A stretch of 64,000 nucleotides of DNA from Escherichia coli (GTDB taxonomy: Bacteria; Pseudomonadota; Gammaproteobacteria; Enterobacterales; Enterobacteriaceae), in assembly GCF_030013205.1 (NCBI RefSeq), contig NZ_CP122648.1; one strand, 5' to 3'. Position numbers: made by a program. Positions 11,796 through 14,700 of this stretch are shown one piece after another. Within the stretch, counting starts at the first letter, position 1, and every line of letters begins with the position of its first letter.

Positions 11796-14700
11796 GGTTA
11801 TGCGCTGATGCCTGATGCGGCGCGGGCGCGTCTTATCATACCCTGGAAGTCTGCGCCCGAATCGTAGGCCGCCTCCGCTATATTAACTGGCATTGGCAAA
11901 TTACTCGTCACTACCTTTATTCATGTTTTTTTGGTCTTCATCCGGATAATGTTTTTTTAGATATTCCAGGACGTTTTTATTGACCTTGTGTTGCGTATAC
12001 ACCCACCCTTTCCAGTAATCAGGCTGGTCCAGGTAAACTTCTGGCGGAATGGTGAAATCAGAAAGCGTTAACCATTCGGCTAATAGATCGGGGTTTCGTT
12101 TCTGGATTAACTGCAACAGCATAATCAGTGACATAGCTGAGGCAGGAGCCGTACTATCGCCACTTAAATATTTCCACACTGTTGACCGGTTCGAACGAAA
12201 AAGGATCGGTAGCAATGCCCGGTCCAGATTCATTTCATTAAAAATCTTCTCAAATTCATTCATTTAAATTTTCCTGCCTGGCGTAAACCTCTTAAAAATT
12301 GAGATTTATCAAAGAAACGCATTTTAGCACACATAAGGAACCGCTTCACGTTTAGTCCAGAAACAGAATTTATTTCGCTTATCAAAACAAGTCTTTACTC
12401 TTTTTTACATTGAAAGAGCACAAAATGATTTTCGATTTTATTTATATAAGAAACAATTTTTGTTTCTTATTGGTGGTGTTTACGCTTACACCAGACAAAA
12501 ATGCGCTTTACATCACACAAATGGCGGCGTAGATTTCGATTAAATTGCAACGCAGTTTATTTCTTAAAACAATATTATTTGTTTCTTATAGAAACATTAA
12601 TGCGACTTATTTTGAACAAGAGAAAATGAATGAAAACTGTAAACGTAGCTTTACTGGCACTCATAATTTCAGCAACATCCAGCCCTGTTGTTTTAGCTGG
12701 TGATACCATTGAAGCGGCGGCAACAGAGCTTTCAGCCATTAACTCTGGCATGTCGCAATCGGAGATTGAGCAGAAGATTACCCGCTTTTTAGAACGCACA
12801 GACAACAGCCCCGCTGCGTATACCTATTTGACTGAACATCACTACATCCCTTCTGAAACACCTGATACCACTCAGACTCCCACTGTCCAGACAGATCCTG
12901 ACGCAGGACAAAAAACCGTTGCCGCTACAGGTGATGTACAGACAACCGCCCGTTATCAGAGCATGATCAACGCCCGACAGTCTGCGGTAACTGATGCCCA
13001 GCAAACGCAAATTACAGAGCAACAGGCGCAGATCGTAGCCACACAAAAAACGCTCGCCGCGACTGGAGATACGCAAAATACTGCGCATTATCAGGAGATG
13101 ATTAATGCCAGACTGGCGGCTCAAAATGAGGCTAATCAGCGCACTACCACGGAACAAGGGCAGAAAATGAATGCACTGACAACCGATGTGGCAGCACAAC
13201 AGCAAAAAGAAAGGGCTCAATACGATAAACAAATGCAAAGTCTGGCGCAGAAGTCTGTCCAGGCACATGAGCAAATTGAAAGTCTGAGACAAGATTCCGC
13301 ACAAACGCAGCAACAGTTAACCAACACGCAAAAACGGGTCGCAGATAACAGCCAACAAATTAACACGCTCAATAACCATTTCGATTCTCTGAAAAACGAA
13401 GTTGAGGACAATCGTAAAGAAGCCAATGCGGGAACTGCATCAGCCATCGCTATCGCCTCACAACCACAGGTGAAAACCGGTGACTTGATGATGGTGTCAG
13501 CGGGAGCGGGAACCTTCAACGGTGAATCTGCGGTGTCTGTAGGAACATCTTTTAATGCCGGAACGCATACGGTACTTAAAGCAGGTATTTCTGCGGATAC
13601 ACAATCTGATTTCGGTGCGGGTGTCGGCGTGGGATATTCGTTCTAATTTTAACAGCAATTTCTTATTCGCAATTTTCCGTACATTATTTAAGGTTAACAA
13701 TGATGAATAGCTCCATTAAATCGTTTTCCCTGCTGGCGGTTATATTACTGGCTGGCTGTAGTTCACCCACTTCCCGCATCGCAGATTGCCAGGCGCAGGG
13801 CGTCAGCCATGACACCTGTTATCTCGCAGAACAACAGCGTCAGACGGCTATTTTAAGTGCATCCGAGGCGCAGGCATTTAAAAATGCAGAAGCCGCACAA
13901 CATGCCCAGGCGGCAAAGAAAGCCATTTATAAAGGATTTGGAATGACCTTTAGAATGAGCAGTAAAAACTTTGCTTATCTCAATGATTCATTATGTGCAA
14001 TTGATGAAGACAATAAAGATGCCACTGTTTATCAGTCAGGTCTGTATAACGTCATTGTTTATCATCACACAGGAAAAGTCGCCTTAATGAAGGAAGGTCA
14101 ATTTGTGGGTTATTTAAAATGAAGGAGCAAAGGAAAATACCCCTGACGCATATTATGATTATCGGTGCGTTTATTTTTGCCTTCTTGCAAGTAGTATTAT
14201 TAGCCTCCCTGGTTCACGCTGTGAATGTTAACAACGAAATCCAGGAAGGCTTATTTCAGTCGGGGCGCATTATGGTAGAAAGTTTGCAGCATATTCTTTC
14301 GGTGCAAACGGGGATTAACTGATTTTCACCCCGCCCGATGATGACAGCAGCCGGAGAGATTTTCGATAATCGGGCAGTCGGCGCTGTCATCGCCAGGGCA
14401 GGCATTCGCCAGCGCCAACAGCTGGTTGCGCATGGATTGCAGTTCTTCGATATGTCGCTCGATCTCCGCCACTTTCTCCAGGGTGCGACGTTTGACGTCG
14501 GCACTGTGACGCTGCGGATCGTTAAACAGATTCACCAGTTCGCCGCTCTCTTCCAGGTTAAAGCCCACCTGGCGCGCCTGGCGCAGTAAGGTCAGTTCGT
14601 TGAGATGCTGCTGCGTGTAGGTTCGATAACCATTTTCGCTGCGCATCGGCGGCGTCACCAGCCCCTTCTCTTCATAGAAGCGAATGGCTTTGCTGGTCAG

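What the first reader, a model, noticed from the sequence alone, without database searches (positions are those of the whole stretch)
11881..14325. Second AT-rich insert between ybbJ and cueR encoding a small YadA-anchor protein, a lipoprotein and two small ORFs
Between the REP cluster after ybbJ and the cueR stop lies ~2.4 kb that I do not remember in K-12, where ybbJ and cueR converge. It holds a 338-aa signal-peptide protein with a Q-rich repeated stalk and a YadA-type C-terminal membrane anchor (12630..13646), a 140-aa lipoprotein (13700..14122) translationally coupled to a 67-aa single-TM ORF, and a divergent 120-aa hypothetical (11901..12263). Together with the adjacent T1SS adhesin this makes a ~28-kb surface-adhesin region wrapped around cueR.
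Basis: partly seen in the sequence, partly recalled or inferred. Interest (0 to 1): 0.6.

Follow-up and report, generated by a model that had tools for sequence, protein, structure and literature searches.

The report
Known O-island 29: headless autotransporter cassette
The stretch between ybbJ and cueR is the already described E. coli O-island 29, and its main gene encodes a small outer-membrane trimeric autotransporter, even though a 2018 paper named that same gene a flagellar transcription factor, "GmrA".

Summary
All four ORFs sit at the stated coordinates. K-12 has nothing between the ybbJ and cueR stop codons. The 338-aa protein has a full-length YadA anchor (Pfam E 1.6e-11).

The region is not new. 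It is O-island 29 of O157:H7 (z0638, z0639, z0640), and about 26% of 5,426 complete E. coli genomes carry it. RefSeq already calls the protein a "YadA family autotransporter adhesin".

The main added point is a conflict with the literature. The published lambda-Red primers show that z0639, named "GmrA" and described as a DNA-binding activator of fliA, is exactly this ORF. It has a signal peptide, is acidic (pI 4.9), and consists of a coiled coil plus a beta-barrel anchor. No DNA-binding domain is detectable; the only such hits are weak matches to SMC-type coiled coils.

The four genes form a cassette that is conserved in Escherichia, Pseudocitrobacter and relatives. It comprises a divergent 120-aa ORF, the headless autotransporter, a lipoprotein with an 8-stranded beta-barrel, and a translationally coupled 67-aa membrane protein. 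It always lies next to qmcA-ybbJ and is under purifying selection. The roles of the accessory genes are inferred, not shown. Nested deletion states suggest an old locus lost repeatedly, rather than a recent insertion.

The parts
11716..11880 (.). REP element cluster directly after the ybbJ stop. It forms the left edge of the DNA that K-12 lacks.
   Evidence: Rfam naRNA4 (REP-derived), 66.2 bits at 11765-11842, plus two weaker copies. A 33-nt direct repeat lies at 11710-11742 and 11810-11842. The REP part matches hundreds of places per E. coli genome.
11901..12263 (-). 120-aa ORF, the z0640 orthologue, transcribed divergently from the autotransporter. Function unknown. It may be a local regulator, but the evidence is only a weak hint.
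   Evidence: The z0640 deletion primer arm maps at 12263-12301. Homologues of 62-99% identity exist, including in Pseudocitrobacter and Symbiopectobacterium, always next to the cassette. dN/dS against the O157 allele is 0.07. The only Pfam hit is to the helix-turn-helix part of MqsA_antitoxin, E 0.012-0.12. The AF2 model is all-helical with pLDDT 60.7 and gives no fold match.
12264..12629 (.). AT-rich divergent control region (30.6% GC). It holds a promoter-like site for the autotransporter operon and repeated AGAAAC/GTTTCT motifs.
   Evidence: A TTTACA-17-TAGATT site lies at 12507-12535, and this block is conserved across genera in the alignment of intergenic regions. AGAAAC lies at region positions 50, 96 and 327 and is conserved at the equivalent positions in the three Pseudocitrobacter-type loci L005-L007. 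The inverted repeats GTTTCTTATAGAAAC and AGAAACAATTTTTGTTTCT are present. No function was tested.
12630..13646 (+). 338-aa headless trimeric (type Vc) autotransporter. It is the orthologue of z0639, published as 'gmrA'.
   Evidence: PF03895 E 1.6e-11. PDB matches to AtaA 9vnj, E 5e-7, and Hia 2gr7/3emo. RefSeq names it 'YadA family autotransporter adhesin'. The gmrA deletion arms map at 12591-12629 and 13646-13684, and they flank the 96%-identical ORF exactly in an O157:H7 genome.
12630..12698 (+). Predicted Sec signal peptide (residues 1-23, MKTVNVALLALIISATSSPVVLA|G).
   Evidence: The strongest hydrophobic 19-mer is residues 6-24 (KD 2.05), Lys is at position 2, and the motif V-L-A precedes Gly24. 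This feature is conserved in all length variants and in other genera. It is a sequence heuristic; no dedicated predictor was available.
12699..12845 (+). Conserved N-terminal domain of about 50 aa in the mature protein (residues 24-72), of unknown fold, followed by a Pro/Thr-rich linker (residues 73-93).
   Evidence: It is conserved across Escherichia length variants of 338-586 aa. It is identical between the window and the O157 allele. It has no Pfam match.
12909..13178 (+). Two tandem 45-aa stalk repeats (residues 94-138 and 139-183). Copy number and neighbouring modules vary among alleles.
   Evidence: The self-comparison peaks at offset 45, and 25/45 residues are identical. Alleles of 436-586 aa differ from this one by added stalk modules in this part.
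13182..13454 (+). Heptad coiled-coil stalk (residues 185-275) leading into the anchor.
   Evidence: There is one continuous heptad register. The 3.5-residue periodicity has power 67 against 8.9 +/- 8.4 in shuffles, and 0.05% of shuffles reach it. The segment aligns to the coiled-coil part of the Hia and AtaA anchor structures. It has the highest dN of the gene, 0.071.
13464..13643 (+). YadA-type membrane anchor (residues 279-338, four beta strands per chain) ending in ...GVGYSF.
   Evidence: Pfam YadA_anchor model positions 1-60 of 60 are matched. Hydrophobicity has a period of 2 residues. Most anchor columns are invariant across the Escherichia alleles. dN is 0.008.
13700..14122 (+). 140-aa lipoprotein, the z0638 orthologue. 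It has the lipobox LLAG|CSS, a helical N-terminal part with two conserved Cys, and a C-terminal 8-stranded beta-barrel.
14119..14322 (+). 67-aa single-pass membrane protein, translationally coupled to the lipoprotein (ATGA overlap). It was not annotated in the original EDL933 gene list.
   Evidence: The hydrophobic segment is residues 14-32 (KD 2.65). A 64-68-aa ORF follows the lipoprotein gene in every complete cassette, with the motif HA(I/V)N.NNE after the TM segment. RefSeq annotates it as WP_000664216.

Best explanation
The interval is O-island 29, a four-gene envelope cassette.

Shown by sequence:
- The central gene (z0639, 'gmrA') encodes a small, headless type Vc (trimeric) autotransporter.
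- Its parts are a Sec signal peptide, a conserved domain of about 50 aa, a Pro/Thr linker, variable Q/A/T-rich stalk repeats, a heptad coiled coil, and a 60-aa YadA anchor ending in Phe.

Inferred from what is established for the family:
- Three chains each contribute four strands to a 12-stranded outer-membrane barrel inserted by BAM.
- The coiled coil threads through the barrel and displays the N-terminal domain on the cell surface. There it acts in adhesion, autoaggregation or surface shielding.

The two downstream genes:
- One encodes a lipoprotein with Ser at +2, so it is predicted to be sorted to the outer membrane. It has an 8-stranded beta-barrel domain.
- The other encodes a 67-aa membrane protein coupled to it translationally.
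- Both are co-conserved with the autotransporter. They are most likely accessory envelope partners in its biogenesis, anchoring or function. This would be analogous to SadB or TpgA, but they are not homologous to either. This role is inferred from gene linkage only.

The divergent 120-aa ORF and the conserved AT-rich control region probably provide local regulation. That is a weak inference.

The published motility phenotype of gmrA mutants is most likely an indirect, envelope-mediated effect, not direct promoter binding by this secreted protein. This too is inference.
For: Autotransporter identity:
- PF03895 E 1.6e-11 over the full model.
- PDB sequence matches to the AtaA and Hia anchors, including the coiled-coil lead-in.
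- Continuous heptad register over residues 185-275, reached by 0.05% of shuffles, and a beta-strand period in the last 45 residues.
- Hydrophobic N-terminal signal-like segment and C-terminal Phe.
- Length polymorphism of 338-586 aa confined to the stalk, with signal peptide and anchor conserved.
- Passenger at 23-33% identity across genera but conserved anchor, the usual pattern for surface adhesins.
- RefSeq annotation, and a 2007 listing of ECs0548 as 'Saa-like protein' among adhesion genes.

Identity with gmrA: the primer arms map exactly.

Against a DNA-binding role:
- The mature protein has pI 4.86 and net charge -12.7.
- No DNA-binding domain is found in Pfam or NCBIfam; the only such hits are weak matches to the coiled-coil regions of SMC, DndD, JetC and LmuB.

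Cassette:
- The same gene order occurs in Pseudocitrobacter-type loci and other Enterobacterales, even where the lipoprotein is only about 40% identical.
- dN/dS is 0.02-0.21 for the three genes that can be measured.
- The promoter block and the AGAAAC motifs are conserved.
Against: Yang et al. 2018 (PMC5826968) report the following for the z0639 product:
- EMSA and ChIP-qPCR binding to the fliA promoter.
- Loss of flagella in the mutant.
- Complementation in trans.
- Increased motility when the gene is expressed in K-12.

None of this can be re-tested here. The same paper found no adherence defect of the whole-island deletion on HeLa or Caco-2 cells, and no motility phenotype for z0638 or z0640. 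So no adhesin or helper function has been shown.

Other limits of the evidence:
- No known autotransporter head domain is present.
- Trimerisation and surface exposure were not tested, and trimer modelling was not available.
- The lipoprotein family also occurs without an adjacent autotransporter (L009/L010).
- The evidence that the 120-aa ORF is a regulator is only E 0.012-0.12 to an HTH model.
Confidence: 0.8

Rival explanations
1. The 338-aa protein is what the literature says. It would be GmrA, a horizontally acquired cytoplasmic transcriptional activator that binds the fliA promoter directly. The autotransporter-like features would then be irrelevant or secondary.
For: Published results include EMSA with His-tagged protein, ChIP-qPCR with FLAG-tagged protein, loss of flagella in the deletion, complementation, and the same phenotype in eight strains (PMC5826968). 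Later reviews repeat this.
Against: - The ORF those primers delete has a signal peptide, a complete YadA anchor and a C-terminal Phe.
- It is strongly acidic, with net charge -12.7.
- It has no DNA-binding domain in Pfam or NCBIfam.
- The paper's 'putative DNA-binding domain' came from a CDD search. It is probably the SMC/DndD-type coiled-coil similarity that I see at E 1e-3 to 1e-5. That link is my inference.
- Both tagged constructs would be expected to mislocalise an autotransporter: the N-terminal His tag sits ahead of the signal peptide and the C-terminal FLAG tag sits after the terminal Phe of the beta-signal. This follows from established outer-membrane protein biogenesis and was not tested.
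Confidence: 0.07
2. The region is a recently acquired, AT-rich horizontally transferred insert. Yang et al. proposed four independent acquisitions in pathogenic lineages.
For: - GC is lower than in the flanks: 43.7% for the island and 30.6% for the intergenic region.
- Distribution is patchy, at about 26% of complete genomes.
- It is absent from K-12.
- In other genera the cassette occupies a different intergenic site.
Against: - There is no integrase, transposase, tRNA or convincing flanking direct repeat.
- It is always chromosomal and nearly always single copy (median 1 place per genome, at most 2), at the same locus.
- It is present at the same site in E. whittamii and Escherichia sp. E1V33.
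- dS of island genes against O157 is 0.10-0.20, similar to the flanking ybbJ (0.23) and cueR (0.16).
- The interval shows nested states: cassette plus a 407-aa gene, cassette only, 407-aa gene only, or neither.
- In K-12 the last ybbJ codons differ, as expected for a deletion scar.
Confidence: 0.3
3. The lipoprotein and 67-aa pair is an independent module that merely neighbours the autotransporter. It could be, for example, an MliC/PliC-like periplasmic inhibitor of lysozyme or another host enzyme.
Against: - Equally good matches go to FAIM and avidins, so this is a generic 8-stranded barrel.
- There is no Pfam hit even at E <= 10 and no PDB sequence hit.
- In the five intact cassettes found by the 120-aa ORF or by distant lipoprotein homologues (L005, L007, L008, L011, L014), the pair directly follows a YadA-anchor gene, across lipoprotein identities down to about 40%.
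Confidence: 0.2

Closest known systems
O-island 29 of E. coli O157:H7 EDL933 (z0638, z0639/gmrA, z0640; Yang et al. 2018, PMC5826968); probably S-loop 43 / ECs0548 'Saa-like protein' of strain Sakai (Ogura et al. 2007, PMC2323221)
   Same: It is the same locus between ybbJ and cueR. The published deletion primer arms for the island, z0638, gmrA and z0640 all map in the window with 0-2 mismatches. The autotransporter is 96% identical to the O157 allele.
   Different: This is an allelic variant: 14 amino-acid differences, mostly in the coiled coil. The published function (transcription factor) disagrees with the sequence-based reading. I inferred the ECs0548 equivalence from its description and strain distribution and did not check it by sequence.
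Trimeric autotransporter adhesins of the YadA/Hia/AtaA type (type Vc secretion)
   Same: It has a signal peptide, a coiled-coil stalk, a 4-strand YadA anchor and a C-terminal aromatic residue. Anchor sequence matches to the solved AtaA and Hia anchors have E 5e-7 to 4e-5.
   Different: It has no YadA-type head, neck or Hep_Hag/HIM repeats. The passenger is a small unknown N-terminal domain plus Q/A/T-rich repeats. At 338 aa it is among the smallest of the family.
HadA of Haemophilus influenzae biogroup aegyptius (256 aa, described as an 'atypical trimeric coiled-coil adhesin'; cited in PMC3309571)
   Same: It is a very short autotransporter whose passenger is essentially a coiled coil. That HadA lacks a globular head is my recollection of Serruto et al. 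2009, not something I tested.
   Different: No sequence relationship was tested or seen. The organism and genomic context differ, and HadA is not reported with a lipoprotein/TM operon.
SadB (Salmonella/E. coli inner-membrane lipoprotein that assists SadA display, PMC3953254) and TpgA (the Acinetobacter AtaA partner)
   Same: A small envelope lipoprotein is encoded in one operon with a trimeric autotransporter. This makes a helper role a reasonable hypothesis.
   Different: - The gene lies downstream of the autotransporter, not upstream.
- Ser at +2 predicts outer-membrane rather than inner-membrane sorting.
- The fold is an 8-stranded barrel, not MATH-like.
- There is no sequence match to any solved structure.
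- An additional coupled 67-aa membrane protein is present.
- A 2026 survey of autotransporter helpers used only autotransporters that have a YadA head domain, so it would not have sampled this family.

Membership tests
Trimeric autotransporter (type Vc secretion) | C-terminal YadA-type membrane anchor (PF03895, four beta strands per chain) | tested here: met
   Pfam E 1.6e-11, residues 279-338 against model positions 1-60 of 60. PDB matches to AtaA, E 5.3e-7, and Hia, E 4e-6.
Trimeric autotransporter (type Vc secretion) | N-terminal Sec signal peptide | tested here: met
   Sequence heuristic only: Lys2, hydrophobic residues 6-24 (KD 2.05), and VLA before Gly24. It is conserved in all homologues. 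No dedicated predictor was run.
Trimeric autotransporter (type Vc secretion) | Coiled-coil stalk running into the anchor | tested here: met
   A single heptad register covers residues 185-275, and 0.05% of shuffles reach its periodicity. It aligns with the coiled-coil lead-in of Hia 3emo and AtaA 9vnj.
Trimeric autotransporter (type Vc secretion) | C-terminal aromatic residue of the outer-membrane beta-signal | tested here: met
   The protein ends ...GVGVGYSF, and this end is invariant in the Escherichia alleles.
Trimeric autotransporter (type Vc secretion) | Globular head domain (YadA head, Hep_Hag, Trp-ring, GIN); typical of the family but not required | tested here: not met
   The query has no Pfam family other than PF03895 at E <= 0.001. 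PF03895 is the only precomputed Pfam domain on the homologues that have one, up to 586 aa.
Trimeric autotransporter (type Vc secretion) | Homotrimer in the outer membrane with a surface-exposed passenger | not testable with these tools
   This needs fractionation, heat-modifiable SDS-PAGE and protease shaving. Multimer modelling was not available.
DNA-binding transcription factor ('GmrA' as published) | A recognisable DNA-binding domain | tested here: not met
   Pfam and NCBIfam give no DNA-binding domain. The only related hits are weak matches to the coiled-coil regions of SMC (E 8.8e-6), DndD, JetC and LmuB.
DNA-binding transcription factor ('GmrA' as published) | Cytoplasmic localisation | tested here: not met
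   A signal peptide and an outer-membrane anchor are predicted from sequence. Localisation itself was not measured.
DNA-binding transcription factor ('GmrA' as published) | Specific binding to a target promoter | not testable with these tools
   This was reported by EMSA and ChIP-qPCR using tagged constructs (PMC5826968). The mature protein has pI 4.86 and charge -12.7.
MliC/PliC lysozyme inhibitors (considered for the 140-aa lipoprotein) | Sequence membership in the family (Pfam MliC/PliC models) | tested here: not met
SadB-type autotransporter helper lipoprotein | Homology to SadB (MATH-like trimeric inner-membrane lipoprotein) | tested here: not met
   The profile search of PDB sequences finds no SadB. 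The predicted fold is an 8-stranded barrel. Ser at +2 predicts outer-membrane sorting, by the established +2 rule.

The most novel reading that the evidence does not exclude
The published data and the sequence could both be right. In that case a genuine type Vc autotransporter, or a non-exported fraction of its precursor, would bind the fliA promoter directly. One polypeptide would then couple production of a surface adhesin to flagellar gene expression. A less radical alternative is that the lipoprotein plus 67-aa pair is a previously unrecognised accessory system for headless trimeric autotransporters. I give that alternative a probability of about 0.25 and an interest of about 0.5.
Probability: 0.04. 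Interest if true: 0.85.

Novelty: already known. Interest (0 to 1): 0.35.

Why it matters
The locus itself is ordinary and already catalogued. What matters is the mismatch between annotation and literature. A gene that reviews now list as a horizontally acquired flagellar transcription factor of EHEC has every sequence hallmark of an outer-membrane trimeric autotransporter and no DNA-binding domain. If the sequence reading is right, the GmrA model of fliA control needs re-examination. The real question would then be how a surface protein influences flagellar expression. The cassette also offers two small, conserved, uncharacterised envelope proteins as candidate autotransporter partners. A recent survey would have missed them because it sampled only autotransporters that have head domains.

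Tried and rejected
I used the 120-aa ORF alignment instead and got only four loci.
- 120-aa ORF: the structure prediction was low confidence (pLDDT 60.7). The Foldseek search against PDB (best E 4.5) and the profile search of PDB sequences gave nothing. The helix-turn-helix idea therefore rests only on a Pfam hit at E 0.012-0.12.
- Rfam: it found only REP-derived naRNA4 in the flank and no RNA element in the control region.
- PHROGs and PADLOC: there is no phage or defence link. The hits are other YadA-anchor 'adhesin/tail' families and coiled-coil artefacts.
- Plasmid and phage tblastn: these gave only anchor-level similarity to other YadA-like proteins. The cassette is chromosomal.
- Classical genomic-island hallmarks: none were found. 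There is no integrase or tRNA, and the only flanking repeat is 17 nt at 82%, which is probably chance.
- Lysozyme-inhibitor and SadB/TpgA membership for the lipoprotein: both were rejected at sequence level.
- Terminator scan: no convincing intrinsic terminator lies between the autotransporter and the lipoprotein gene. The weak stem at 13617-13641 is inside the coding end. I did not build on it.
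Full report
**1.
- The ORF list reproduces the four ORFs at the stated coordinates, flanked by ybbJ (11257-11715, +) and cueR (14326-14733, -).
- The 67-aa ORF starts inside the stop of the lipoprotein gene, as an ATGA overlap.
- REP elements occupy 11716-11880.
- GC falls from 52-58% in the flanking genes to 43.7% over 11716-14325 and to 30.6% in the 366-bp divergent intergenic region.
- In K-12 MG1655 the stop codons of cueR and ybbJ are adjacent with no base between them. 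The last codons of ybbJ differ there from the window.

**2. Identity of the locus.**
- A megablast of 11700-14400 against 5,426 complete E. coli genomes finds 1,266 genomes with at least 80% of it. One swine isolate is 100% identical.
- RefSeq annotates a 'YadA family autotransporter adhesin' plus three hypothetical or lipoprotein genes.
- The anchor-lipoprotein-67-aa segment is present in 1,416 genomes, always on the chromosome and nearly always as a single copy (median 1 place per genome, at most 2).
- The literature search identified the interval as O-island 29 of O157:H7 EDL933: 2,643 bp holding z0638, z0639 and z0640 (PMC5826968).
- I mapped the lambda-Red homology arms from that paper's Table S2 onto the window:
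  - The island arms lie at 11668-11706 and 14325-14363.
  - The z0638 arm lies at 14122-14160, so z0638 is the 140-aa lipoprotein.
  - The z0640 arm lies at 12263-12301, so z0640 is the 120-aa ORF.
  - The gmrA arms lie at 12591-12629 and 13646-13684, directly flanking the 338-aa ORF.
- In an O157:H7 genome the gmrA arms match with 0 and 1 mismatches and again flank the 338-aa ORF exactly. That ORF is 96% identical to the window's.
- Ogura et al. 2007 listed ECs0548 (S-loop 43, absent from K-12) as a 'Saa-like protein' among adhesion genes. This is very probably the same gene, but I did not verify that by sequence.

**3. What the 338-aa protein is.**
- Pfam gives YadA_anchor, E 1.6e-11, covering the whole 60-position model at residues 279-338.
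- Sequence searches of the PDB hit the anchors of AtaA (E 5e-7) and Hia, including their coiled-coil lead-in.
- Residues 1-23 look like a Sec signal peptide, and the protein ends in Phe.
- Residues 185-275 keep one heptad register with strong 3.5-residue periodicity, reached by 0.05% of shuffles. The last 45 residues show a period of 2. Residues 94-183 are two 45-aa repeats.
- No head-type domain is detected.
- Homologues are confined to Escherichia species and range from 338 to 586 aa. The differences are added stalk modules, while the signal peptide, an N-terminal domain of about 50 aa and the anchor are conserved.
- Against the O157 allele, dN is highest in the coiled coil (0.071) and lowest in the anchor (0.008).
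- This is the anatomy of a small, headless trimeric autotransporter. Trimerisation and surface exposure are inferred from the family and are not shown here.

**4. Conflict with the published function.**
- Yang et al. named z0639 GmrA, a transcriptional activator. Their grounds were a 'putative DNA-binding domain' from a CDD search, EMSA with N-terminally His-tagged protein, ChIP-qPCR with a C-terminal 3xFLAG fusion, and motility phenotypes.
- Reviews repeat this. Searching the held library for GmrA together with 'autotransporter' found only two such reviews, and neither links the two.
- I find no DNA-binding domain in Pfam or NCBIfam. The stalk gives only weak matches to the coiled-coil parts of SMC (E 8.8e-6), DndD, JetC and LmuB. 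I infer that this is the origin of the domain call.
- The mature protein is acidic, with pI 4.86 and charge -12.7.
- From established outer-membrane protein biogenesis, a tag ahead of the signal peptide or after the terminal Phe would be expected to mislocalise the protein. This is inference.
- I cannot re-test the experiments. The phenotypes may well be real but indirect. The authors themselves say regulation may be direct or indirect.

**5. The cassette.**
- Lookups starting from the 120-aa ORF and from distant lipoprotein homologues return the same gene order in other Enterobacterales: a divergent 111-120-aa ORF, a YadA-anchor protein of 346-473 aa, a lipoprotein-like protein of 125-156 aa, and an overlapping 64-68-aa membrane ORF.
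- One locus carries two tandem anchor genes.
- The cassette always lies beside qmcA-ybbJ, but at different intergenic sites. In Pseudocitrobacter-type loci it sits between qmcA and fetA. In another lineage it sits between cnoX and qmcA. In Escherichia it sits between ybbJ and cueR.
- In Symbiopectobacterium the cassette is decayed.
- Passenger domains are only 23-33% identical across genera, while the anchors are conserved. The 67-aa protein keeps a TM segment and an HA(I/V)N.NNE motif.
- dN/dS is 0.07 for the 120-aa ORF, 0.21 for the autotransporter and 0.02 for the lipoprotein.
- The control region keeps a TTTACA-17-TAGATT block, and it keeps AGAAAC motifs at equivalent positions in the Pseudocitrobacter-type loci.

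**6. The accessory proteins.**
- The lipoprotein family has 106 representatives at 50% identity.
- The AF2 model has pLDDT 82 overall and above 90 in the C-terminal domain. It shows helices at residues 23-69 and an 8-stranded barrel at residues 75-139.
- AFDB50 returns only uncharacterised Enterobacterales lipoproteins. Pfam and PDB sequence searches are empty.
- The protein is not SadB-like: SadB is an inner-membrane, MATH-like trimer encoded upstream of sadA.
- A helper or partner role is a linkage-based hypothesis. The family also occurs without an autotransporter, and deleting z0638 gave no motility phenotype.
- A 2026 survey of autotransporter helpers required a YadA head domain, so it would not have sampled this family.
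- The 120-aa ORF remains uncharacterised.

**7. Insert or ancestral locus.**
- No mobility genes or convincing target duplications are present.
- E. whittamii and Escherichia sp. E1V33 carry the cassette at the same site, together with a 407-aa gene next to cueR. E. coli strain 9 keeps only that 407-aa gene, the window keeps only the cassette, and K-12 keeps neither.
- Synonymous divergence of the island genes (0.10-0.20) is like that of ybbJ and cueR (0.23 and 0.16).
- I therefore favour an old Escherichia locus with repeated deletions over four independent acquisitions. My confidence is moderate, about 0.6-0.7.

**8. Verdict.**
The added value has two parts. The first is the documented clash between the sequence and the published 'GmrA' function. 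The second is the recognition of a conserved four-gene autotransporter cassette with two uncharacterised envelope partners.

Noticed in passing
window 18068-37722 (- strand): The giant T1SS substrate is split into two overlapping ORFs: 5,501 aa at 18068-34573 and 1,074 aa at 34498-37722. This looks like a frameshift. RefSeq marks the gene as a pseudogene in the genome whose island region is 100% identical to the window. The EAEC 042 genome paper says the RTX-like substrate is frameshifted in both O157 and 042.
   Followed up: partly
window 14730-14733: The stop codon of the HlyD-family T1SS adaptor gene overlaps the cueR start codon by 4 nt (ATGA). In this strain cueR therefore sits as the last, possibly co-transcribed, gene of the T1SS block. 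In K-12, cueR follows a 124-bp gap after ybaT. E. coli strain 9 keeps a short frameshifted remnant overlapping the cueR start.
   Followed up: no
L003 2123-3346; L016 2338-3561; L013 1533-2756: A 407-aa hypothetical gene occupies the cueR-proximal part of the ybbJ-cueR interval in E. coli strain 9, E. whittamii and Escherichia sp. E1V33. The alleles are 93% identical. The gene is absent from the window and from O157.
   Followed up: partly
window 11710-11842: The REP cluster after ybbJ scores above the Rfam gathering threshold for naRNA4 (66.2 bits against a threshold of 59.5). It contains a 33-nt direct repeat spaced 100 nt apart.
   Followed up: no
window 12437-12614: The control region upstream of the autotransporter holds two related AT-rich blocks 119 nt apart. 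They contain the inverted repeats AGAAACAATTTTTGTTTCT and GTTTCTTATAGAAAC. The AGAAAC half-sites recur at conserved positions in the Pseudocitrobacter-type loci.
   Followed up: partly
L008 (GCA_030238365.1) 196-7411: This variant cassette has two tandem YadA-anchor genes (533 and 584 aa) and a small ParE-like ORF ahead of the lipoprotein/65-aa pair. A large serine recombinase gene follows and appears to have truncated qmcA.
   Followed up: no
L015 (Candidatus Symbiopectobacterium) 4523-5174: The cassette is decayed in this symbiont. Only a fragment of the anchor remains, and the lipoprotein gene is split, while the 120-aa ORF homologue remains intact.
   Followed up: partly
hit H6, NZ_CP054227.1 (E. 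coli EcPF15): In this strain an IS1397 (IS3-family) element is inserted within the island.
   Followed up: no
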